The position numbers and the translations under genes are program-made. Under the pieces are notes generated by a model. That model was not told where the DNA came from and did not search any database. It was given only the letters and a program-made list of their open reading frames with translations. From Escherichia coli (GTDB lineage Bacteria > Pseudomonadota > Gammaproteobacteria > Enterobacterales > Enterobacteriaceae): a stretch of 64,000 bases of DNA. Below, piece after piece: positions 37,305-49,744 of this stretch. Position 1 is the first letter of the stretch. The number at the start of each line of letters is the position of its first letter. The stretch is from NCBI RefSeq assembly GCF_024298765.1, contig NZ_CP101210.1; one strand, given 5' to 3'.

Positions 37305-37527
37305 AATTTTTACAGACTGATAAAGTTTTGTCTGCTGAATCTTTATACGGAATTCTTTTCAGTATGCGTACACGAATTGATTATCTGGCGGATAAATACT
37401 GTTTTACAGAACTGAATGAATCGCCCCGTCTTCGCCGGCAATGGCAGGATGTCCTGGATGAGTGCCGGCAGACAGAGGCAGGGCCGGAAGAACGGTTGCG
37501 TATTGCACTGTTGAATGTGGATTACGT
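37305..37527 (+). repeat. copy 2 of ~220-bp diverged segment (5-prime end of gene at 22855), fused to tssF
   Basis: Encodes ..AESLYGILFSMRTRIDYLADKYCFTELNESPRL.. up to ..LLNVDYV, then switches into the tssF frame. Confidence 0.7.
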
Positions 37528-39206
37528 CAGCAATGCTGAATCTGGATAAGCCTGGTGCCTGCGATCCCAGTGTGGAACGTCTGTTTGAAGGCTTTGCCTT
37601 CCTGATGGGACGTTTGCGTGAAAAGCTGGATGATGACCTGCCGGAGCTCACCGAAGGTCTGGTGAGTCTGCTGTGGCCGCACTATATGCGGACTATCCCG
37701 TCGCTGGCCATCGTTGAGTTCTCGCCTGACTGGCGTAGTCTGCGTCAGGCCGAAATACTGGCTGAAGGCTTTTCCGTTCTGTCCCGTCCTGTCGGGCCGC
37801 ATAAAACCGCCTGCCAGTACCGGGCGACCCGCGATGTGTTGCTACAACCGCTGCACCTTGCAGATGCCCGTCTCCATACTGAATCCGATGGCCGCTCTGC
37901 TATCCGTCTGCGCTTCGAATGCCCTGAAAAAGTGGACTGGAGTAAAGCCGGGATCGACAAAGTCGCCATTTTTCTTAACGCAGAGGCGCCGGTAAGTGCT
38001 GCGCTACATCTGGCAATGACCCGGCGTGTACATGCCATGTATGCGCGTCATGCCGGGACATATACCGGACGTCGTCAGTTTGACGGCTGGTGCAGACCCA
38101 TGGGCTTTGACGACAATGACTGCCTGTGGAAGAAAGCTGATACAGCCTTCAGTGGTTACCAGTTGCTGCTGGAGTATTTCAGCTTCCGTCCGAAGTTTAT
38201 GTTTGTTGAACTGCGCGGCCTCGACACCATTGGGCTCACTGCGGCCAGTACCTGGTTTGAAATCGACATTGTGCTCAGTGAAGCCTGGTCATCCGGTTTG
38301 CCTTTTGAGACAGAAAACTTCCGCCTGCACTGTGCGCCGGTTATCAATCTCTTTACCCTGGAAGCCGACCCGCTGATCCTTAACCCGCTGGATAACGAGT
38401 ACCTGCTCAGGCCGCTGCGTCTTCAGGATGGTCACACCGAAATTTACAGCGTCGATAACATTCACGGCTCGGTGAAGAACGGCAGACACCCTTATGTCCC
38501 GTTCACCAGCTTCCGGCACCGGGGCGGTATGATGCGCCACGATGCTCCTGAACGTTATTACCACACCCGTGTGAAACGGGGACCCTCCGGCCTGTATGAC
38601 ACATGGTTAGTTCTCGGGGGGCGTTCGTTCGAGCTGGAGCAGTTGTCCGATAAACCGGAGTCCCTCTCGATGCGAATCACCGCGACCAACGGGCAGCTTC
38701 CGCGCAGGGCGCTGGAAAGTACGCTCCTGGACAGGGTGGTCAAAACCGGCAAAGTCCCCGTCAGAGTCCTGAACCTGACCGCACCGACGATGCCACTGTA
38801 TCCCCCGGCAAATGACCGGTTTCACTGGCGGGTGATGAGTCACCTCGGATCAAACTTTCTCAGCATGATGGACAATCCGGAGGTGCTGCGGGGGACGCTG
38901 GCGCTCTATGACTGGACCGACGATGAAATGAACCGCCGCCGGCTTGAAGCCATCGTTGCTGTGAAGCACACCCTGATCCGCCGTTTTGAAAAGGGCTTTA
39001 TGCTCCGTGGCGTGGACATTGAGGTCACGCTGAATATGGATAATTTTGCCGGCGAGGGCGATGTGAATCTCTTCGGGGAGATGCTGCACCGTTTCTTTGC
39101 GCTCTATGCTGATGTTCACCTTTTCAACCAGCTCACACTGGTACTGCAACCCACAGGGAAACGACTGAGATGGAAAGAGAATCACAGCCAGCACGTACCG
39201 GGCTGA
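37515..39206 (+). pseudogene. tssF: type VI secretion baseplate subunit TssF, N-terminally truncated
   Basis: DPSVERLFEGFAFLMGRLREKLDDDLPELTEGLVSLLWPHY matches the TssF N-region; first ~40-50 residues replaced by unrelated sequence. Confidence 0.7.
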
Positions 39207-40015
39207 CGCAGGCCCTGGCCCTTAACAACGATATCTGGCGGGCCAGTTTTTATCGTTTCTGCCAGCTGCTGGAGCTGGAAAATCCGGACGGGCCAAAACT
39301 GGGCACGACCAGCCATCCGGGCGATGACCCGGTGCGATTCAGGCCCTGGCCCGGGATGGGATTCCCGGTCAGCACCCTGAAAGCGGTGGAGATCGACGAA
39401 GACCGTCCGACATTACCCCCAACGATCCGCACGACATTTCTCGGAATGTATGGGGTGGACTCACCTCTGCCGACGTCCTGGCTGGATGATATTGCGCAGC
39501 GCCGTGAAGGACATGAGGCGCTCACCTCATTTCTGGATATTTTCAGCCACCGCATCACCACCCAGTACTACCGGATCTGGCGAAAATATGCGTATCCGGC
39601 CACTTTCGAGGAGGGGGGGCGCGATGCCACATCGCAGTGTCTGCTGGGACTGGTCGGACTCGGTATACCCGGCACCGCTGAACAGGTGGCAACGCCGGTT
39701 TCCCGTTTCCTGGCCTTACTGGGTGCCATGCGATTACCCACCCGCAATGCTGAAGGCATCCGGGCTCTGGTGAGTCTGCTGGCACCGGATACCCGCGCAC
39801 TTATCACCGAACCCGATCCGGTTAAGGTCCATATCGATAACCGCAGTGGGCTGGGTGCCGGAAACCGCATCCGTCTTTCGCAGCGGGCCACGCTGGGTAA
39901 AACGGCAGGGGAAGCATGCAGCCGGCTCCTGATGACACTGGAAACAGCGGATCCGGACGAGGCGGAAGGCTGGTTGCCCACAGATAACCGGAGCAGGATT
40001 TACCGCCTTTCTTAG
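39170..40015 (+). pseudogene. tssG: type VI secretion baseplate subunit TssG, C-terminally truncated
   Basis: 281 aa with TssG-like FYRFCQLLE...VRF...FPVS...FLGMYGVDSPLP...FLDIFSHRITTQYYRIWRKY; overlaps tssF end; IS66 fragment starts about 50 bp downstream. Confidence 0.65.
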
Positions 40016-40066: not shown

Positions 40067-40849
40067 TCAACTCGCGATGGAGTAACGCCGCCAGGGGAGA
40101 TAATGCGGCACCCGCCGCGCCAACCATGTCAGCCATCGAACTGACGGGCAGCCCGACACTGAACGGGCAAAGACCTGTTGCTGGCGATACAGAGGCAGGT
40201 GGTCACCGTATTTATTGATGATCACCTGTGTGATGACTGATGGCTCAACGGCACTTTTCGGGAGGATATGTGCCGGCATTTCACCGCTGAACACCTTCTG
40301 GCAACAGGAACAACTGTATTGCGGACGGACATAACGGTTCACCACGAAGTGAACGGGAATATACTCCAGCTTTTCACTCACCGCATCACGGATATAGTGC
40401 AGCGGCTCGTCACATTCAGGGCAATGGTCAGTGTCCGGCTGGATAATTTTTTCCACCCGTGGAAGATGAGCCGGTAAGGGTTTGCGTATCGGGCGTGAAC
40501 GGGACGCTTTTTCGTCTTCTTCAGGGGATTGCGGGAGCAGTTTATCCAGATGTGCGGTAAGCGCGGCGATATCGACATCAACATCCTCTTCGAACAGGGA
40601 GCGTTGCATACCAGCCAGCGTTTCACATTTTTTACCGAAGCGCTGTTGACGAACCAGTTTCAGCATTTCTTCCAGAAGCTGGATGCGCCGGCTTTTCTCC
40701 AGTAATTCCCGCTCTTTTTCGGCATTCTCCGACATGACTTTTTGTACCATGGTAAGTGCCATAGCACGCAGTTTTTCGATGTCATTCGTGGTGTTGAGAG
40801 CGGAGATATCCATACAGGGGAGTATACCACTCCAGATACGGATATTCAT
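40067..40849 (-). pseudogene. tnpC: IS66 TnpC, N-terminal part only
   Basis: Coiled-coil N-terminus, Zn finger CPECDEPL...CSCC, DHLPLYRQ motif; C-terminal half missing. Confidence 0.7.
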
Positions 40850-40855
40850 TATTTT

Positions 40856-41248
40856 TCACTGAGTTAGCAGTGTATTTTGCGTGTTTTCAGGGCGCAGTTC
40901 AGGTTCATTCTGCCAGCCCCATTTCGTCAGGTCATGTCCCTTAACCTGCTGCCAGTCAACACCGGCAATCAGCCAGTTAAACTCGTCGGGAGTTAGGTGC
41001 CAGGCAGCATCATTTGCACGTGGCCAGCGGAAGCTGCCTTTGTGCAGACGGCGGGTACACAACCACACCCCGTGTTTATCCCACCGGAGAACTTTGATAC
41101 GCGAACGGACTTTGTTAACAAAGACGAAGGCGGCTCCCTCATGCCATGTCGACCGGAGTTCATCCTGTATATACTGCGTCAGTGTGTCGATGCCCCGGCG
41201 CATGTCAACAGGTTTAATCGCGATGAAGACATTATCAGGACTGAGCAT
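40856..41248 (-). CDS. tnpB: IS66 TnpB (Orf2)
   Basis: Start at internal ATG (MLSPDNVFIAIKPVDMRRGIDTL...); typical ~130-aa TnpB. Confidence 0.7.
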   Translation of the reverse strand: MLSPDNVFIAIKPVDMRRGIDTLTQYIQDELRSTWHEGAAFVFVNKVRSRIKVLRWDKHGVWLCTRRLHKGSFRWPRANDAAWHLTPDEFNWLIAGVDWQQVKGHDLTKWGWQNEPELRPENTQNTLLTQ

Positions 41249-41564
41249 ATTTGAGCGCCCTGAAGACATCGGTAAGTTGTGACGGCTGACAGCACATCCG
41301 TACTCCGCCGGGAAGGAAGAGCGTGACTGGCTCATTCGTGACGGGCTGTGGTACATCAGCATGCAGTGGTGGCGCAATATGAACGGGAAGAACGGTCGGT
41401 TCATTTGCCCGGCGTTCAGCTTTTGCGACATCCTGCGGCCATTCGCGAAGTGATGTGAAGGGAATATCGTTGAGTTCACAGTATTGCTGACGTGTAAGAC
41501 CACTGGCGCGCCAGGCAGCAACGTGCTGCCTTTTCTGTTCAATGGTCCATCGGGGTTTTGACAT
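41235..41564 (-). CDS. tnpA: IS66 TnpA (Orf1)
   Basis: 109 aa; overlaps the tnpB start. Confidence 0.65.
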   Translation of the reverse strand: MSKPRWTIEQKRQHVAAWRASGLTRQQYCELNDIPFTSLREWPQDVAKAERRANEPTVLPVHIAPPLHADVPQPVTNEPVTLFLPGGVRMCCQPSQLTDVFRALKYAQS

Positions 41565-43447: not shown

Positions 43448-44212
43448 ATGAGTCAGAAATACCTCATTCGGATCACTGAGCTGGAAAGGTTGCTCTCTGA
43501 GCAGGCTGAAGCCCTCCGTCAGAAAGACCAACAACTGAGTCTGGTTGAAGAGACGGAGGCCTTCCTGCGTTCTGCGCTGGCACGTGCCGAAGAAAAGATC
43601 GAAGAAGATGAGCGGGAAATAGAGCATCTGCGGGCCCAGGTGGAAAAACTGCGCCGGATGCTGTTCGGTACCCGTTCTGAAAAACTGCGTCGTGAAGTTG
43701 AACAGGCTGAAGCCCTGCTGAAACGACGCGAACAGAACAGCGATCGTTACAGCGGGCGTGAGGATGACCCGCAGGTTCCCCGCCAGTTGCGACAGTCGCG
43801 TCATCGTCGCCCGTTACCGGCGCATCTGCCCCGCGAAATAAACCGCCTGGAGCCAGAAGAAAGCTGTTGCCCGGAGTGTGGTGGTGAGCTGGATTATCTG
43901 GGGGAAGTCAGCGCAGAACAACTGGAACTGGTGAGCAGCGCCCTGAAAGTGATCCGCACAGAACGGGTAAAAAAAGCCTGTACAAAATGTGACTGCATCG
44001 TTGAAGCACCGGCACCGTCCCGTCCGATAGCGCGTGGTGTCGCGGGCCCGGGGTTACTTGCCCGCGTGTTAACGGGAAAATACTGCGAACACCTGCCACT
44101 GTATCGTCAGAGTGAAATCTTTGCCCGTCAGGGTGTCGAACTGAGCCGTGCGTTACTCTCCAACTGGGTTGACGAGCTCCTGCCATGGAACGTAGCACTC
44201 ACCAATAAATAA
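43448..44212 (+). pseudogene. tnpC: IS66 TnpC, N-terminal part only
   Basis: 254 aa; Zn finger CPECGGEL...CTKCDC, HLPLYRQ motif; C-terminal half missing. Confidence 0.7.
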
Positions 44213-44437
44213 GTATCAATACGGCACTCCGTTAACGCTTACTGAAACGACGCCGGGGACCATCTTCTTTTGGGTAAAAAAGGCCGCGCCAGAATTCGAC
44301 ACGACCACTGCTATATGCGTATTATTCTGTTCCGGGAGATTGCCTCTCTTCTGGTTATTCAGCAATACAACGGACAAAAAGCACTGGCATAAATAACCCC
44401 TTGTTAAACGGAGAATAGTGATAATGTATTGACGCTA

Positions 44438-45685
44438 TTACTCATTTCTCATCTTCATCCTTCGGGTAAGCAGAGTCGCACAAATGAATCCCAGCAGACT
44501 AAATGCCACCATTACAGAAAAAACATAGTTATAGCCCTGTATGCCAGAAAAATTATCTAACAGCGAACCATAAAGCGTGTAAGCAAACATGGAAGGCATG
44601 TAACCAATAATGCACCCAAACGCCATTGCTGAACCAGCAAATTCTCTGGGGGTACCGATTTCATCCATTGGCGCAAAAAAAATTGCCCGTTGTGAAAAAA
44701 TGATTGCACCAAATCCAAGAGTTGCAGTCATTCCAAGATAAACATTCATTGAGTCGTGTGGTAGTTGAATAAAAAGTAGCATAGCGACTGCTGAAATAAG
44801 GAAAGTCCATTTCAGATAGATGACCGGAGAATGAGAAATTTTATCTGCGAGATAACCGCCAACTGGCCCGCCCACCATTTTTAGTCCGTACTGGTTAATA
44901 ATCCCGTAAGCACCCACGAGTGCAACGGGAAGGGCATAGATATCTTTCAGGAATGGTATGAAATATGTTAGCCCACAATATGCGGAGTACACAAAGAATA
45001 TACAAAATGAGGCCAGCCACAGATTTGGTGATTTAACGACATTCTTTATCCCCTTGAATATCTGTTTATTAACATCTTCGTCATTCTGTGGAATGGTCCT
45101 GTCGTCTGCATCCACAATAAAGTAGGTGATAATTCCAACAATAATGGTGATTAATGTGTAATAAACAAGACCAGCCTGCATGCCAGCTTTTCCTTCGCCA
45201 AACTGCACAAAGACGAATAAAGCGCCGGACGCAATTAATACATCCACGACTCCTCGTCCAGCTTCCAGAAAGCCGAACATACGTCCCTGTTCATCCCTGT
45301 TCCCCAACAGACGAACAGCTTTAAGTAGCACGGGCCAGTAGACCACTTCGCCAAAGAAAGCCATAGCACCAAAAGCTATAAGGTAACCAGAGAAGGGGGG
45401 TAATGTTGTGAGGTAAGCGCCGCACAGACCCACACCGATTAAACCTGCAGGAAGAAGTATTTTTTTGGAAAAGCGATCTGCTATATATAATGAACTAAAT
45501 AGTCCGATAGTCTGAACAGCAGCATATATTGTAAATCCAAAGCCAATCTGTGTATTAGTCAATCCCCAGTCAGCCTGCATAGGAACATAAAATACGTCCT
45601 TCATACTGGACAATTTGAAAATTGTCCCACCGCCAAGAATAAGGAAGCATAGCTTCATCCATTTATTCATCTGGTTATCCCCCAT
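44438..45685 (-). CDS. MFS transporter
   Basis: 415-aa ORF with ~12 hydrophobic segments; start may be the second ATG (45670); 1-nt overlap with RidA gene. Confidence 0.7.
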   Translation of the reverse strand: MGDNQMNKWMKLCFLILGGGTIFKLSSMKDVFYVPMQADWGLTNTQIGFGFTIYAAVQTIGLFSSLYIADRFSKKILLPAGLIGVGLCGAYLTTLPPFSGYLIAFGAMAFFGEVVYWPVLLKAVRLLGNRDEQGRMFGFLEAGRGVVDVLIASGALFVFVQFGEGKAGMQAGLVYYTLITIIVGIITYFIVDADDRTIPQNDEDVNKQIFKGIKNVVKSPNLWLASFCIFFVYSAYCGLTYFIPFLKDIYALPVALVGAYGIINQYGLKMVGGPVGGYLADKISHSPVIYLKWTFLISAVAMLLFIQLPHDSMNVYLGMTATLGFGAIIFSQRAIFFAPMDEIGTPREFAGSAMAFGCIIGYMPSMFAYTLYGSLLDNFSGIQGYNYVFSVMVAFSLLGFICATLLTRRMKMRNE

Positions 45686-46062
45686 TATTTGATAACCGCA
45701 ATGGCTTCAATTTCTATCAGCACGTCTTTCGGTAATCTGGCGACTTCAACACAGGACCTGGCCGGGTATTTGTCTGATGAGAAATATTCACTGTACAGAA
45801 GGTTAAATTGAGAAAAATTATCCATGTTACTGATAAAACAGGTTGTTTTTACGATGTTATCCATTCCGATTCCTGCAGATTCAATAATTGCCTTCAGATT
45901 ATCCATCGCTTGCCTGGTTTGCCTTTCTATAGTCTCGCCATTTACGGTTCCGTCTTCTGGTTTGAAAGGACAACATCCGGAAATGAACAATAAATTACCA
46001 GTTGATACTGCCTGTACATAGGGACCGATAGCTTTGGGGGCATGTTTAGTATCAATGATCAT
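45685..46062 (-). CDS. RidA/YjgF family reactive-intermediate deaminase
   Basis: 125 aa; MIIDTKHAPKAIGPYVQAV...ARSCVEVARLP pattern typical of RidA. Confidence 0.75.
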   Translation of the reverse strand: MIIDTKHAPKAIGPYVQAVSTGNLLFISGCCPFKPEDGTVNGETIERQTRQAMDNLKAIIESAGIGMDNIVKTTCFISNMDNFSQFNLLYSEYFSSDKYPARSCVEVARLPKDVLIEIEAIAVIK

Positions 46063-46083
46063 AAAAGTATCCTTTTAAATTTA

Positions 46084-47043
46084 TTAACAATATTTTTTTC
46101 TTAAATTCTTCAGAGTCTGAACAGAAACCTCAACACAACGATTTTGGGCTGCCATTAGTTCCTGTAATACAGAGTCAGATATTTTGGCAGGGTAGTAATA
46201 ATCAAGTGGCTTTATTTTCAGGTGTTCAAATGGTGCCTCTTTTACGGAGAATGCCCCTTCCAGAGAATATACGCCGCCAGTACCCTTTGGACGGGCAAAA
46301 GGTGAGGCATATGGGAAACATGTTTCGATGTTTATTCTGGTTAAAGAGGACTCTTTAACCAGAGTTTTAAAGCAGGTATCAATATCAATGCTTCCTTCTC
46401 CGACAGGAACACCACAGACAACCAGGTCTTCGCCGTTGCGTGTGACAATATGATCCTTGAAATGCGTGCTGTAAGCATAAGGAGCCAGTTTACGAACTGT
46501 TTCTACTGGTTCTTCCCATGCCATCATTCCATTACCTATATCACAGTGTGCTCCCACCCACTCAGAATTAACAGATTTGATAACTTCGATTATCTCGTCG
46601 GCAGTTTCATCTTCATGGTTTTCTATTGCCAGTTTAATTTTCTTTCTACTGAGTAAGGATGTCAGTGATTTTAACTGTTCTACTATTTCCGGATATTTCA
46701 GAGGGTTATATTCTCCTCTCCTGAACATATAAGTTCGGATAACTTCTGCTCCAAGTGCAGATGCAATTTCCACTGCTCTGGTGATAGCTTCACAGGAAGT
46801 GAATCGGGTATCTATCTCACAATAAAGACCATGAGAATCAATGGATTTTCTGACTTTTGACAGATATTCAGGAGATATACTGTTCAGGACACCAAATTCC
46901 GGATGCAGACCAACATCCGGAATGATATTAATTTCGACCCCATCCAGCCCCAGTTCACTGGTTTTATCAATGAAGTCGAAAATATCCATCATTCCCTGCT
47001 GAAAGAACAGATGATATGACTCAGTCTCAAGGCCTAGTTTCAT
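46084..47043 (-). CDS. sugar phosphate isomerase/epimerase (xylose-isomerase-like TIM barrel)
   Basis: Start at ATG 47043 with GGAGG RBS; family call from overall sequence resemblance. Confidence 0.55.
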   Translation of the reverse strand: MKLGLETESYHLFFQQGMMDIFDFIDKTSELGLDGVEINIIPDVGLHPEFGVLNSISPEYLSKVRKSIDSHGLYCEIDTRFTSCEAITRAVEIASALGAEVIRTYMFRRGEYNPLKYPEIVEQLKSLTSLLSRKKIKLAIENHEDETADEIIEVIKSVNSEWVGAHCDIGNGMMAWEEPVETVRKLAPYAYSTHFKDHIVTRNGEDLVVCGVPVGEGSIDIDTCFKTLVKESSLTRINIETCFPYASPFARPKGTGGVYSLEGAFSVKEAPFEHLKIKPLDYYYPAKISDSVLQELMAAQNRCVEVSVQTLKNLRKKYC

Positions 47044-47228
47044 GGCGAACCTCCATAGTATTTGAGACTGATTGTAGTTTTTTATACATTTGTAAAATGT
47101 GATCAAAGTAGAATAATTTCTCACTTAGTGAATAAATTTACTACCTGGTGTTATTTTGAGCCACTTTGGTGGACTCTGTTCTGCATCTGGTATAGCATTC
47201 AGATGTACTTTGTTCATGAGGTTATTAT

Positions 47229-47891
47229 ATGAAATCTATTGTTAATCATGAGTTTACTGAGGATGACAGGCAGCTTTTGCTCTCATATATTCCATTCATC
47301 GACAGTCTTGGTCAGTTCTTGGGTGAGTATTGCGAGATCGTCCTGCATAGTTTTGAGGACTTGCATCATTCCGTTATTCATATCGTTAACGGGCATGTGA
47401 CGGGGAGAGAGAAGGGGGCACCTGTAACAAATATAGCACTGGAAAAACTGGCAGAATTTAACTCAACAAACGATATGTGGGATGTCTATTTCAACCATAA
47501 AGGCGTTCGCCCTTTTAAATCATCGTCATCACTTATTCTGAATAAAAATAAAGAACCAGTAGGTATGATATGTATGAACTTTGCTCTGGATATGCCTCTT
47601 AATGCATTTATTGAAAACTTTGCAAAATCGTCAAACTGTAAAAACGAAAATTTCACTCAGGATATCAATAATCTTGTGCTTAGTCACCTTGAACCTGTTA
47701 AAAATATGGTTTACTCCAATAAGAATATACCAAGTAAAAACAAGAACTTTGAAATAGTAAAAGAACTTAATTCTATTGGGTTGTTTAAGTTCCCGGTTAC
47801 AACAAAAATTGTTTCATCGGTTCTTGGTATCAGTGCTAACACTATTTATAAACATCTCAGGGTATTAAATAATAAGGGGAAGGAGAATTAA
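47229..47891 (+). CDS. YheO-like PAS-domain transcriptional regulator
   Basis: 220 aa; divergent from the MFS-RidA-isomerase operon; C-terminal HTH VLGISANTIYKHLR. Confidence 0.5.
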   Translation: MKSIVNHEFTEDDRQLLLSYIPFIDSLGQFLGEYCEIVLHSFEDLHHSVIHIVNGHVTGREKGAPVTNIALEKLAEFNSTNDMWDVYFNHKGVRPFKSSSSLILNKNKEPVGMICMNFALDMPLNAFIENFAKSSNCKNENFTQDINNLVLSHLEPVKNMVYSNKNIPSKNKNFEIVKELNSIGLFKFPVTTKIVSSVLGISANTIYKHLRVLNNKGKEN

Positions 47892-48778
47892 GGTGTCTGT
47901 ATTCTGAACTTATAAGTAAGTTGTTTGTCTGAAGCGTATTGATATTTATTTTTCGGTTAGAGCAACTTTCTAGGGAAACAGATCGCGTATCCAGTTTGCC
48001 TGTCATTCCTAGATATGTTCAATGACGTAACGCAGCCATTTTTCTGGAGCCATATTGTTCAGACGGCATGTACCAATCCGCAGGTACAGCATCGCCGCAT
48101 CCTCAAGTAATGCCGGTAATTTGGGGCGTAATTCTGTTGCGCTTTTACTGAACACAATGCCGTATTCAGTAAGAAGTCCAAGAACATGATCTATCAGTTG
48201 TGTCCTTCCATCGAGATCAACCGATGCATTTTCAAAAAAGCCTGGACGTTCTGTAGGTCCAGACTTTTTATTGGTACCAGTCGTATAGTTCTATATTGAT
48301 AGGTTTCAGCTATTGCTGTGCGTTGTTATAATCATTTTTCTGACGCCATTGATAAGATTTAACATGTTGTGCTGGATGCAATATTACATCATAGTTGAGT
48401 TCCCTTATTTCCTGTGGGCAGTGATGGGATGTCCCGCAAGCCTTCATCGCAACGGTCATTTTGGCTGTTATACCAGCCAGTTAAGCAGTTGGTTGTGAGA
48501 AAGTTTGATCTTTCCCGCGTGATTGCCACGAGCATTGATACTGAAAAGATAAAAGTTCGTTTTAGCCTGAGCGATGTCGGTAATTTTCTGTTCAATCATG
48601 GCCTTTCTCTTACTTTTGTGGTTAAAATTTATTCGCTATGGCGCAATTGAAAGCGGTCGTGAAGGTGGGGGAAGACTATCTCATCACTTACCATATTTCC
48701 GACATATTCTCACAACAAAATACCACGTAACTATTGATGAATATTGTTCTCTCCTGAGCAGCGTTTATGCTTTAATTG

Positions 48779-48794
48779 CTAAATCGATTTAATT
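48779..48794 (+). promoter_or_regulatory. candidate ScrR operator upstream of scrK
   Basis: Near-palindrome GCTAAATCGATTTAAT inside larger inverted repeat AATTGCTAAA...TTTAGCAATT, 30 bp before the scrK start. Confidence 0.45.
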
Positions 48795-48823
48795 AGTTTA
48801 GCAATTAGTATATTGGAGCCTTT

Positions 48824-49744
48824 ATGAGCACAAGAGTATGGGTACTTGGTGATGCGGTTGTTGATTTATTACCCGAAAGCCAGGGGAGACTACTACAGTG
48901 TCCTGGCGGGGCGCCTGCTAATGTTGCAGTCGGTATCGCAAGGCTGGGGGGGAAAAGTGCCTTTATTGGCAAAGTTGGCGATGATCCTTTCGGTCGCTTT
49001 ATGTATCAGACACTGAGTACAGAAAATGTTGATACACGTTATATGTCTCTTGATCCTCAACATCGCACCTCAATTGTGGCTGTAGGACTTGATGAGCAAG
49101 GAGAAAGAAACTTTACCTTTATGGTACGCCCAAGTGCCGATCTTTTTTTACAACCTGATGGCCTTCCTGCATTTGGGCCGGGTGAATGGCTCCATCTTTG
49201 TTCCATTGCGCTCAGTGCAGAACCTTCCCGAAGTACCGCATTTCTGGCTATGGAGAAAATACGTCAGGCTGGCGGAAACATCAGTTTTGATCCCAATATC
49301 CGCAGCGATCTCTGGCAGAGTGAAGCGCTATTAAGGAAATACCTTGATCGCGCACTTTCGCTGGCGAATATCGCTAAATTGTCCGAAGAAGAGTTGCTAT
49401 TCATCAGTGGCGAAAGCCAGGTTCAGCAAGGCGCATATTCATTAGTACAACGTTATTCGTTGACTTTATTGCTTATCACACAAGGAAAAAATGGCGTACT
49501 TGTGTATTTTCAGGGGCAGTTTATCCACTATCCCGCCAAACCTGTTTCTGTCGTCGATACGACCGGGGCAGGAGATGCTTTTGTCGCTGGATTACTTGCC
49601 GGTCTGGCTGATTCTGGAATACCAACAAATACCAGACAGCTTGAACGAATCATTGTACAAGCTCAGATTTGTGGTGCTCTGGCGACCACGGCTAAAGGCG
49701 CGATGACCGCCTTACCCCGACAACACGATCTCCCTTCACAATAG
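48824..49744 (+). CDS. scrK: fructokinase
   Basis: 306 aa; ribokinase/pfkB family motifs (GGAPANVA; DTTGAGDAF); first gene of scr cluster. Confidence 0.85.
   Translation: MSTRVWVLGDAVVDLLPESQGRLLQCPGGAPANVAVGIARLGGKSAFIGKVGDDPFGRFMYQTLSTENVDTRYMSLDPQHRTSIVAVGLDEQGERNFTFMVRPSADLFLQPDGLPAFGPGEWLHLCSIALSAEPSRSTAFLAMEKIRQAGGNISFDPNIRSDLWQSEALLRKYLDRALSLANIAKLSEEELLFISGESQVQQGAYSLVQRYSLTLLLITQGKNGVLVYFQGQFIHYPAKPVSVVDTTGAGDAFVAGLLAGLADSGIPTNTRQLERIIVQAQICGALATTAKGAMTALPRQHDLPSQ

What the first reader, a model, noticed from the sequence alone, without database searches (positions are those of the whole stretch)
44438..47891. MFS transporter - RidA - sugar phosphate isomerase/epimerase operon with divergent YheO-like regulator
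A compact, AT-rich three-gene operon with its own divergently transcribed regulator, embedded between IS66 debris and the scr cluster. The combination suggests catabolism of a sugar or amino-sugar derivative that generates a reactive enamine/imine intermediate. The substrate is unknown.
Basis: inference. Interest (0 to 1): 0.45.

Follow-up and report, generated by a model that had tools for sequence, protein, structure and literature searches.

The report
Mobile nutrient-use gene cassette, substrate unknown
This is a real four-gene cassette (transporter, orphan metal-dependent TIM-barrel enzyme, RidA imine-hydrolysing helper and its own regulator) that moves between E. coli chromosomes and conjugative plasmids and recurs across several bacterial phyla, but the compound it breaks down is still unknown.

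Summary
The window holds a 410-aa MFS transporter, a 125-aa RidA and a 319-aa PF01261 TIM-barrel protein on the minus strand, 14 and 21 bp apart. A YheO-type regulator (PAS_6 + HTH_22) is transcribed divergently. GC is 33-44% against 50-57% to the left.

New points:
- The four genes are a discrete 3.67-kb cassette (44250-47915). It is in about 1% of complete E. coli genomes and is the sole cargo between nikB and trbC of IncI1 plasmids.
- The same four genes sit intact in Proteus, Yersinia, Citrobacter, Aliivibrio and Psychromonas, so nothing is missing.
- In 80 loci from several phyla the orthologous MFS lies next to the TIM gene in 59, RidA in 33 and YheO in 29, in several gene orders. The TIM barrel is the only constant enzyme.
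- The TIM subfamily is compact, highly conserved and uncharacterised. It fails the UlaE/SgbU thresholds, and the nearest solved structure is 18% identical.
- The MFS is 49% identical to the orphan transporter YihN.

Best reading: a one-enzyme uptake and breakdown module whose TIM-barrel enzyme yields an enamine/imine that RidA hydrolyses. The substrate is not identified. Moderately interesting.

The parts
44250..47915 (.). Extent of the mobile four-gene cassette, defined as the segment shared with the IncI1 plasmid copy.
   Evidence: blastn aligns window 44250-47915 with pXBb L093 8816-12479 at 94.7% identity. The same four genes lie between nikB and trbC on the plasmid.
44244..44276 (+). Remnant of the last ~10 codons of a nikB-like (IncI1 relaxase) gene.
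   Evidence: The window reads KRRRGPSSFG*, against the plasmid NikB end DKRWEPPSPG*, read directly from the sequences. nikB is annotated in L093.
44279..44310 (-). GC-rich hairpin followed by a T-run on the minus strand. It is a probable terminator of the MFS-RidA-TIM operon and is the same hairpin that follows nikB on IncI1 plasmids.
   Evidence: Terminator-like site at 44306..44282, with 10 pairs, 6 of them GC, then TTTTTT. It occurs once in the window. On the plasmid a perfect 35-nt direct repeat of it brackets the cassette.
44438..45670 (-). YihN-like MFS transporter, 410 aa; the presumed importer.
   Evidence: ORF and PGAP start. It is 49% identical to K-12 YihN, E 2e-141. The best NCBIfam hit is the PgtP subfamily at 69 bits, far below its 408-bit cut-off. 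Charged residues K19, K117, E136, R139, D143, K264 and R328 are conserved in 58 orthologues.
45685..46062 (-). RidA-subfamily enamine/imine deaminase, 125 aa.
   Evidence: TIGR00004 at 163 bits against a cut-off of 106. R102 (equivalent to RidA R105), Y15, S28, N87 and E117 are invariant in all 34 cluster-linked RidAs.
46084..47043 (-). Orphan metal-dependent xylose-isomerase-like TIM-barrel enzyme, 319 aa; the only constant enzyme of the module.
   Evidence: PF01261 at 3e-21. The AF2 model has pLDDT 96. E141, D168, H194 and E240, plus E8, H11, R103, H143, E144, E146, K196, H198 and C242, are invariant in 79 sequences. There is no close solved or characterised relative.
47044..47228 (.). Divergent control region. 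It contains a degenerate copy (about 47122-47147) of a palindrome conserved in the orthologous loci, which is a putative YheO operator.
   Evidence: Alignment of 7 intergenic regions. CT(T/G)AGTAA-N9-TTACT(A/T)AG is found in Citrobacter, Yersinia and Proteus. Weak sigma-70-like sites were also found.
47229..47891 (+). YheO-type transcription regulator (PAS_6 sensor domain plus HTH_22), 220 aa.
   Evidence: Pfam hits. It is 32% identical to K-12 YheO, E 9e-35. Orthologues are adjacent in 29 of 80 loci.

Best explanation
The cassette is a self-contained, horizontally mobile module for taking up and breaking down one small polar compound.

Proposed steps:
1. The YihN-like MFS protein imports the compound. 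It is probably anionic and nitrogen-bearing (inferred).
2. The orphan divalent-metal TIM-barrel enzyme carries out the single committed step, an isomerisation or beta-elimination next to a carbonyl or carboxylate. This leaves a 2-amino-enoate / 2-imino-acid intermediate (inferred).
3. RidA hydrolyses that intermediate to a 2-oxo acid plus ammonium. This speeds the pathway and protects PLP enzymes (RidA family chemistry is established; its role here is inferred).
4. The product enters central metabolism with no further dedicated enzyme.
5. The YheO-type regulator senses the substrate or an intermediate through its PAS_6 domain. It controls the divergent promoters through the conserved palindrome (inferred).

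Shown here: gene families, operon-like layout, completeness, mobility, and cross-phylum linkage of the TIM barrel with the MFS and with RidA.
Not shown here: substrate, reaction, transcription and regulation.
For: Completeness and mobility:
- The same four genes are intact in core-chromosome contexts of Proteus and Aliivibrio and in Citrobacter, Yersinia and Psychromonas.
- They are the sole cargo between nikB and trbC on IncI1 plasmids.

Linkage in 80 loci from Enterobacterales, Pasteurellaceae, Vibrionaceae, Bacillota, Fusobacteria, Brachyspira and Acidimicrobiaceae:
- The orthologous MFS (360-910 bits) lies within 4 kb of the TIM gene in 59 loci, RidA in 33 and YheO in 29.
- Gene orders differ (TIM-RidA-MFS, RidA-MFS-TIM, MFS-TIM-RidA).
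- No other enzyme recurs except a HAD phosphatase.
- Context types are interleaved on the TIM tree, so the enzyme function looks the same throughout.

The proteins:
- RidA passes its curated cut-off and keeps the carboxylate-binding Arg in 34 of 34.
- The TIM barrel keeps the E-D-H-E metal ligands and about 30 invariant residues; mean column identity is 68% across phyla.
- An AgcS amino-acid carrier (16 loci) or an ABC system can replace or join the MFS. The binding protein of that ABC system resembles sulfate- and 2-aminoethylphosphonate-binding proteins. This fits a small amino/oxyanion compound.
- There is a conserved palindrome in the control region and a terminator-like hairpin after the last gene.
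Against: - No member of PF01261 is known to act on an amino compound or to release an enamine/imine. Known chemistry of the fold needs a carbonyl next to the reacting carbon (family knowledge).
- RidA is absent from 47 of 80 loci.
- In many Bacillota the TIM gene instead sits with a DeoR regulator, a HAD phosphatase and sugar-type or phosph(on)ate-type ABC transporters. That would also fit a nitrogen-free sugar phosphate.
- The E. coli copy of the putative operator is degenerate.
- Nothing about expression, substrate or product was or could be measured here, and no literature on the module was found.
Confidence: 0.45

Rival explanations
1. The TIM barrel is an ordinary epimerase or isomerase for a nitrogen-free rare sugar or sugar phosphate, converting it in one step to a common sugar. 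RidA is a passenger or a general guard with no direct link to the reaction.
For: - The fold neighbours are ketose 3-epimerases, UlaE, IolI and the isomerase Art22.
- DeoR regulators occur in 37 loci, with HAD phosphatases and CUT1-type sugar ABC transporters beside the TIM gene in Bacillota.
- RidA is missing in 47 of 80 loci.
- The K-12 trio yihL-yihM-yihN has a TIM barrel and an MFS but no RidA.
Against: - A RidA within 4 kb in 41% of loci, across distant orders and in three gene orders, is far above what a gene family with a few copies per genome would give by chance.
- AgcS amino-acid carriers lie in 16 loci.
- The regulator type is not a sugar-type regulator.
Confidence: 0.25
2. A specific version of the main idea. 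The substrate is an alpha-amino acid with an anionic beta-leaving group, such as O-phosphoserine, cysteate or serine O-sulfate. The TIM metalloenzyme eliminates phosphate or sulfite without PLP and gives 2-aminoacrylate. RidA turns that into pyruvate plus ammonium.
For: - It explains why one enzyme is enough, since the product is pyruvate.
- It fits an archetypal RidA with the carboxylate-binding Arg.
- The nearest curated transporter family is the organophosphate:phosphate antiporters at 69 bits, against 39 for the next family, and Lys/Arg residues are conserved in the MFS.
- Alternative partners are AgcS (Ala/Gly-type carriers) and an ABC system whose binding protein resembles sulfate- and aminoethylphosphonate-binding proteins, alongside an NPP-type phosphodiesterase and a HAD phosphatase.
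Against: - There is no precedent for this chemistry in PF01261.
- The transporter misses the OPA cut-off by a wide margin.
- A HAD phosphatase next to the TIM gene would make a phospho-lyase redundant.
- The case is purely circumstantial.
Confidence: 0.12
3. Another specific version. The substrate is an amino sugar or an Amadori/Heyns sugar-amine. The TIM barrel performs an aldose-ketose isomerisation that leaves an imine, as NagB, AgaS and FrlB do with a different fold. RidA speeds hydrolysis of that imine to sugar plus ammonium or amino acid.
For: - It matches the known chemistry of the fold: isomerisation next to a carbonyl, with E-D-H-E metal ligands.
- Sugar-type ABC transporters and DeoR regulators occur in some loci.
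- AgcS could handle a released small amino acid.
Against: - RidA-subfamily enzymes are known to act on 2-imino acids through the conserved Arg, and these imines lack an alpha-carboxylate on the imine carbon (family knowledge).
- No kinase or other sugar-pathway gene is linked.
- The MFS is not of the sugar-porter type.
Confidence: 0.12
4. In E. coli the cassette is silent, selectively neutral cargo that hitch-hikes on IS66 debris and IncI1 plasmids.
For: - It is present in only about 1% of complete genomes.
- It is flanked by IS fragments.
- Its operator copy is degenerate.
Against: - All four reading frames are intact and 99-100% identical in 51 records.
- A 95-96% diverged plasmid allele also keeps all four frames.
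- The catalytic residues are all conserved.
Confidence: 0.06

Closest known systems
E. coli K-12 yihL-yihM-yihN (b3872-b3874)
   Same: Both are trios of a regulator, a PF01261 TIM barrel and an MFS, with no other enzyme. The cassette MFS is 49% identical to YihN over its full length.
   Different: YihM is only 23% identical to the cassette TIM barrel. The regulator is GntR-type rather than YheO-type, and there is no RidA. The K-12 trio is itself uncharacterised: YihN is 'of unknown function' and behaves as an importer in dye assays (PMC8131027).
Catabolic operons that carry their own RidA paralogue (tdcABCDEFG with TdcF; Pseudomonas dguABC; both from my own knowledge)
   Same: A RidA-subfamily gene is embedded in a substrate-specific uptake and breakdown operon, presumably to dispose of the enamine/imine made by the operon's own enzyme.
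   Different: In those systems the imine source is a PLP dehydratase or a flavin dehydrogenase. Here no such enzyme is in the cassette or among the conserved neighbours of 80 loci. The only candidate source is a metal-dependent TIM barrel.
UlaE/SgbU L-ribulose-5-phosphate 3-epimerases, ketose 3-epimerases, isomerase Art22 (PDB 3cqh, 2hk0, 8z1i)
   Same: They share the xylose-isomerase-like TIM-barrel fold and the E-D-H-E metal ligands with the HxKD motif.
   Different: Identity is 13-19% and TM-score 0.6-0.7. The protein scores 43 bits against a 317-bit curated cut-off. It has extra invariant residues (E6, E8, H11, R103, H143, E144, E146, H198, C242) and a conserved C-terminal KYC tail.
Isomerase-deaminases and deglycases NagB, AgaS and FrlB (my own knowledge)
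   Same: They offer a possible mechanistic analogy: an aldose-ketose isomerisation on an amino sugar that ends in imine hydrolysis.
   Different: They have unrelated folds (NagB, SIS) and act on phosphorylated substrates made by a linked kinase or PTS. No RidA partner is known for them. The analogy was not tested here.
PDB 5T1P binding protein and its ABC / phosphodiesterase / HAD cluster
   Same: The binding protein of the ABC system that sits next to the TIM gene in Clostridium, Paenibacillus and Acidimicrobiaceae scores 412 bits to 5T1P.
   Different: The ligand is not named in the entry. From memory, and unverified, 5T1P may be Campylobacter jejuni Cj0727 of the phosphate-starvation regulon. 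That system is absent from the E. coli cassette.

Membership tests
RidA subfamily of the Rid (YjgF/YER057c/UK114) family | Score above the curated TIGR00004 cut-off. | tested here: met
   163.1 bits against a cut-off of 106.25.
RidA subfamily of the Rid (YjgF/YER057c/UK114) family | Conserved Arg105 (carboxylate clamp) and the Tyr17, Ser30, Asn88 and Glu120 equivalents. | tested here: met
   R102, Y15, S28, N87 and E117 are invariant in 34 of 34 cluster-linked RidAs.
RidA subfamily of the Rid (YjgF/YER057c/UK114) family | 2-imino-acid / enamine deaminase activity. | not testable with these tools
   Needs an enzyme assay.
Xylose-isomerase-like TIM barrel (Pfam PF01261) | Profile match, a (beta/alpha)8 fold, and the Glu-Asp-His-Glu metal ligands. 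| tested here: met
   PF01261 at 3e-21. The AF2 model has pLDDT 96 and matches the fold at probability 1.0. E141, D168, H194 and E240 are invariant.
L-ribulose-5-phosphate 3-epimerase (UlaE/SgbU), the source of the 'sugar phosphate isomerase/epimerase' label | Score above the NCBIfam cut-offs for these models (NF009688 and NF009689, subfamily; TIGR00542, equivalog). | tested here: not met
   42.8, 34.1 and 29.9 bits against cut-offs of 317, 200 and 272.
3-oxo-isoapionate decarboxylase (label given by JGI to two homologues) | Genomic linkage to apiose-pathway genes and orthology to characterised OiaC. | tested here: inconclusive
   Only 2 of 120 listed homologues carry the name. No dehydrogenase, lactonase or kinase neighbours recur in 80 loci. 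No OiaC sequence was available to compare.
Organophosphate:phosphate antiporters (PgtP/GlpT/UhpT, TIGR00881) | Score above the subfamily cut-off. | tested here: not met
   69.3 bits against a cut-off of 407.75. It is nevertheless the best-scoring curated transporter family.
YihN-type MFS transporters | Full-length homology to E. coli YihN. | tested here: met
   49% identity over 413 columns, E 2e-141. The substrate of YihN is unknown.
YheO/DauR-type regulators | N-terminal YheO-like PAS domain plus a C-terminal HTH_22 domain. | tested here: met
   PAS_6 at 1.4e-31 and HTH_22 at 3.2e-12. It is 32% identical to K-12 YheO.
RidA-guarded catabolic operon of the tdc type | A PLP- or flavin-dependent enzyme in the same operon that generates the enamine/imine. 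| tested here: not met
   No such gene is in the cassette or among the recurrent neighbours of 80 loci.
Single operon (co-transcription of TIM barrel, RidA and MFS) | One transcript spanning the three genes. | not testable with these tools
   Only indirect support: gaps of 21 and 14 bp, the same strand, a single strong terminator-like hairpin downstream, and conserved adjacency.

The most novel reading that the evidence does not exclude
The conserved TIM-barrel protein founds a new enzyme class: a PLP-independent, metal-dependent lyase or isomerase that deaminates an amino compound through a free enamine/imine and has recruited RidA as its dedicated partner. Together with a YihN-type importer it would form a one-enzyme catabolic pathway spread by plasmids across gut and soil bacteria. 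It would also give the first handle on the substrates of the orphan YihN/YihM and YheO families.
Probability: 0.3. Interest if true: 0.7.

Novelty: new variant of a known kind. Interest (0 to 1): 0.45.

Why it matters
RidA paralogues inside operons mark pathways that make reactive enamines or imines. So far the known sources are PLP or flavin enzymes. Here the only candidate source is an uncharacterised, very conserved metal TIM-barrel family, found from Enterobacterales to Fusobacteria, Brachyspira and Actinobacteria. It is always next to a transporter and rarely next to any other enzyme.

Identifying its substrate would:
- assign function to an orphan enzyme family;
- give a lead on E. coli's orphan YihN-type transporters and YheO-type regulators;
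- explain why IncI1 plasmids of poultry and human E. coli and Salmonella carry this cargo.

The Yersinia pestis orthologue of the transporter gene is already used as a diagnostic PCR target without any known function.

Tried and rejected
- **Truncation by IS66.** I asked whether IS66 had removed pathway genes. Rejected: the same four genes alone occur in Proteus, Aliivibrio, Citrobacter, Yersinia and on IncI1 plasmids.
- **Literature.** Searches for YheO+RidA, xylose-isomerase-like+RidA+MFS, the four WP accessions, the old names (endoribonuclease L-PSP and others), Art22, Cj0727/5T1P and yihLMN found no functional study of the module.
- **Solved structures.** For the TIM barrel, only distant generic fold matches came back. 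The AFDB50 neighbours are all unnamed. For the MFS, there was no PDB hit at E<0.001.
- **JGI label '3-oxoisoapionate decarboxylase'.** There is no supporting gene context, so I did not adopt it.
- **Domain-fusion clue.** The 652-aa relative P0128 only has a low-complexity insert.
- **Extra enzymes near the TIM gene in odd loci.** In L022, L079, L087 and L051 these are unrelated neighbours: the men operon, an acyl-CoA dehydrogenase and MgtC.
- **Fe-S cluster idea from four Cys.** Only C242 is invariant.
- **Rfam.** A scan of 43500-49500 found nothing.
- **Promoter scan.** It found fewer sites than shuffled sequence would give, so it is uninformative.
- **Synteny with NZ_CP018965.** I assumed the window matched it upstream of the cassette. 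ORF sizes at 30-41 kb differ from that record, so I make no claim about its restriction-modification genes.


Full report
**What is in the sequence.** PGAP annotation of 100%-identical DNA in E. coli Ecol_517 and alignments of homologues refine two starts.
- MFS transporter: 44438-45670 (-), 410 aa.
- RidA: 45685-46062 (-), 125 aa.
- TIM-barrel protein: 46084-47043 (-), 319 aa, starting MKLGLETE behind a GGAGG.
- Regulator: 47229-47891 (+), 220 aa.

The three minus-strand genes are separated by 21 and 14 bp. About 130 bp after the MFS stop lies a 10-pair GC-rich hairpin with a T-run. GC is 0.33-0.44 through the block, against 0.50-0.57 just to the left. The neighbours are IS66 tnpA-tnpB and a truncated tnpC on the left and scrKYABR on the right.

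**Family assignments.**
- RidA scores 163 bits on TIGR00004, above its cut-off of 106.
- The TIM barrel matches PF01261 at 3e-21. It reaches only 43 bits on the L-ribulose-5-phosphate 3-epimerase model, whose cut-off is 317. 'Sugar phosphate isomerase/epimerase' is therefore a generic name and not an assignment.
- The regulator has a YheO-like PAS domain (1.4e-31) and HTH_22 (3.2e-12). It is 32% identical to K-12 YheO, a validated transcription factor of unknown biological role (bioRxiv 10.1101/2024.11.20.624476).
- The transporter is 49% identical over its full length to the K-12 orphan YihN. A 2021 dye-uptake study still calls YihN 'of unknown function' (PMC8131027).
- In K-12, yihN sits beside yihM, another PF01261 protein that is 23% identical to the cassette enzyme, and the regulator gene yihL. 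'Regulator + TIM barrel + YihN-type MFS, no other enzyme' is therefore a recurring design.

**A discrete mobile unit.** The window is part of a pheV-tRNA genomic island of E. coli.
- The four genes occur in 62 of 5426 complete E. coli genomes, at 53 chromosomal and 11 plasmid places.
- They occur on 16 conjugative plasmids in PLSDB, 14 from E. coli and 2 from Salmonella.
- On the IncI1 plasmid pXBb they are the only cargo between nikB and trbC.
- Homology between plasmid and window runs exactly from 44250 to 47915, at 94.7% identity.
- On the plasmid the cassette is bracketed by a perfect 35-nt direct repeat of the hairpin that follows nikB.
- The window keeps one copy of that hairpin (44279-44310) and the last ten or so codons of a nikB-like gene.
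- Immediately to the right, about 47915-48100 resembles the 3' end of an IS66 tnpC in the opposite orientation.

IS66 debris therefore lies on both sides. I infer that the chromosomal copy was probably captured from an IncI1-like plasmid.

**Nothing is missing.** The same regulator | TIM-RidA-MFS arrangement sits between housekeeping genes in Proteus terrae and in Aliivibrio salmonicida. It is also in Citrobacter, Yersinia pestis, Proteus mirabilis and Psychromonas.

**Cross-phylum linkage.** A pattern scan of one genome per species returned 80 loci encoding close relatives of the TIM barrel (42-77% identity). They come from Enterobacterales, Pasteurellaceae, Vibrionaceae, Succinivibrionaceae, Bacillaceae, Paenibacillus, Clostridium, Vagococcus/Enterococcus, Fusobacteria, Brachyspira and Acidimicrobiaceae. 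I called ORFs in these loci and searched them with the four window proteins.

| Neighbours within 4 kb of the TIM gene | Loci |
|---|---|
| MFS + RidA + YheO | 25 |
| MFS only | 24 |
| none of the three | 20 |
| MFS + RidA | 7 |
| MFS + YheO | 3 |
| RidA + YheO | 1 |

- The orthologous MFS (360-910 bits) is thus adjacent in 59 loci, RidA in 33 and YheO in 29.
- Gene order varies: TIM-RidA-MFS in Proteobacteria, RidA-MFS-TIM in Bacillaceae and Paenibacillus, and MFS-TIM-RidA in Vagococcus and Sporosarcina.
- Other recurrent neighbours are:
  - a DeoR regulator (37 loci);
  - a PotA/PhnT-like ABC system (about 15-17 loci);
  - an AgcS amino-acid carrier (16 loci; Clostridia, Fusobacteria and Enterococcus);
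  - a HAD-IA or Cof phosphatase (about 15 loci);
  - a YitT-like membrane protein (10 loci);
  - a CUT1-type ABC system (5 loci);
  - in Peribacillus, an NPP-type phosphodiesterase.
- The binding protein of the PotA/PhnT-like ABC system scores 412 bits to PDB 5T1P and weakly resembles sulfate- and 2-aminoethylphosphonate-binding proteins.
- No other enzyme recurs. Odd neighbours proved unrelated.
- On a neighbour-joining tree of the TIM proteins the context types are interleaved, for example within the Paenibacillus/Bacillaceae clade. The same enzyme therefore seems to be plugged into different transporters and regulators.

**The enzyme.**
- Twenty-five relatives from Proteobacteria and Bacillota align with 68% mean column identity.
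- Across 79 sequences about 55 positions are at least 95% conserved. These include the canonical metal ligands E141, D168, H194 and E240. They also include the family-specific residues E6, E8, H11, N39, E76, R103, Y105, H143, E144, E146, N171, K196, D197, H198, N238, C242 and Y245, and a mostly conserved C-terminal KYC.
- The AlphaFold model is confident: pLDDT 96, pTM 0.92.
- Its best matches among solved structures are generic. Art22, UlaE, DgpB/C and the ketose 3-epimerases match at TM 0.6-0.7 and 13-19% identity.
- All close AlphaFold-database neighbours are unnamed.
- A profile search of 1.84 billion representatives found only about 13 full-length clusters above 295 bits before a steep fall. 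The family is compact.

**RidA.** All 34 RidAs linked to this TIM barrel keep the Arg that binds the substrate carboxylate (R102 here, R105 in RidA) and the other active-site residues. By established RidA biochemistry this points to a 2-imino acid or 2-amino-enoate as the species being hydrolysed.

**Regulation.** The 185-bp divergent region aligns between species around one block. That block is the palindrome CT(T/G)AGTAA-N9-TTACT(A/T)AG, present in Citrobacter, Yersinia and Proteus. The E. coli copy, at about 47122-47147, is degenerate. I take it as the likely operator of the YheO-type regulator; this is inferred.

**Most likely mechanism.** The cassette is a one-enzyme uptake and breakdown module.
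1. The YihN-like MFS imports a small polar, probably anionic, nitrogen-bearing compound.
2. The metal TIM barrel performs an isomerisation or elimination that leaves an enamine/imine.
3. RidA hydrolyses it to an oxo acid and ammonium.
4. The regulator senses the compound.

I give this 0.45. The main rival, at 0.25, is an ordinary epimerase or isomerase for a nitrogen-free sugar or sugar phosphate, with RidA incidental. The DeoR, HAD and sugar-type ABC contexts favour that rival, as does RidA's absence from 47 loci.

Two specific versions of the main idea fit different subsets of clues:
- Beta-elimination from an amino acid with an anionic leaving group, such as O-phosphoserine or cysteate, giving pyruvate. 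This explains the single enzyme, the canonical RidA, the phosphate-antiporter-like MFS and the oxyanion/amine-type binding protein. It has no precedent in this fold.
- An amino-sugar or Amadori isomerase-deaminase. This fits the fold's chemistry but not RidA's known preference for alpha-imino acids.

Sequence analysis cannot decide between them.

**Comparison with known systems.** The logic resembles tdc-type operons that carry their own RidA. The defining PLP or flavin enzyme is absent here. The closest named relatives (YihN, YihM, YheO) are all orphans. I found no paper on the module.

**Verdict.** This is a real, complete, mobile and widely conserved orphan catabolic module. It is a new variant of a known kind of system. 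It is moderately interesting, and more so if the TIM barrel proves to be a PLP-independent deaminating enzyme.

Noticed in passing
L015 7386-7443 (Yersinia pestis NCTC5923), orthologous to window 44438-45670: The 'yihN' chromosomal signature used for Y. pestis PCR detection (primer and probe from PMC3280232) maps with no mismatch inside the MFS gene of the orthologous cassette. A widely used diagnostic target therefore belongs to this uncharacterised module.
   Followed up: yes
L093 8844-8878 and 12561-12595 (IncI1 plasmid pXBb); window 44279-44310: On IncI1 plasmids the four-gene cassette is the only cargo between nikB and trbC. It is bracketed by a perfect 35-nt direct repeat of the nikB terminator hairpin, which is much longer than a usual target-site duplication. 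The insertion mechanism is unexplained.
   Followed up: partly
window 44244-44276: The last ~10 codons of a nikB-like relaxase gene survive just left of the cassette. This suggests the chromosomal copy came from an IncI1-like plasmid.
   Followed up: partly
window ~47915-48100: This segment is 81-84% identical to the 3' end of an IS66-family tnpC in reverse orientation. IS66 debris therefore flanks the cassette on both sides, not only on the left.
   Followed up: partly
L094 2448-5513 (E. coli K-12 yihL-yihM-yihN): K-12 has a paralogous regulator + PF01261 TIM barrel + YihN MFS trio with no RidA, also of unknown function. It lies next to the sulfoquinovose gene cluster (ompL-yihO...).
   Followed up: partly
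L048 8992-10137 and equivalent genes in L033, L036, L040, L052, L072, L087: In several Bacillota and Acidimicrobiaceae the TIM gene sits with an ABC system whose binding protein is nearly identical in family to PDB 5T1P (412 bits). It also sits with a HAD phosphatase and, in Peribacillus, an NPP-type phosphodiesterase. This hints at an organophosphate or oxyanion-bearing substrate. The link to the Campylobacter Cj0727-0733 phosphate regulon is from memory only.
   Followed up: partly
window 40067-41564 (- strand) and 37515-40015 (+ strand): ORF sizes and the translation of 41235-41564 suggest a second IS66 copy in inverted orientation, preceded by two long ORFs. These match the tssF/tssG pseudogene sizes annotated in NZ_CP018965. 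The window lacks the ~11 kb (AAA protein, NotI-type restriction-modification genes) that lies between these elements in that strain. This was not checked by search.
   Followed up: no
L020, L021, L023, L026 (Pasteurellaceae): In these loci the YheO gene is co-directional with TIM-RidA-MFS. The module is flanked on both sides by levoglucosan-dehydrogenase-like Gfo/Idh/MocA oxidoreductases and ribose-type ABC transporter genes. Whether they are functionally linked is unknown.
   Followed up: no
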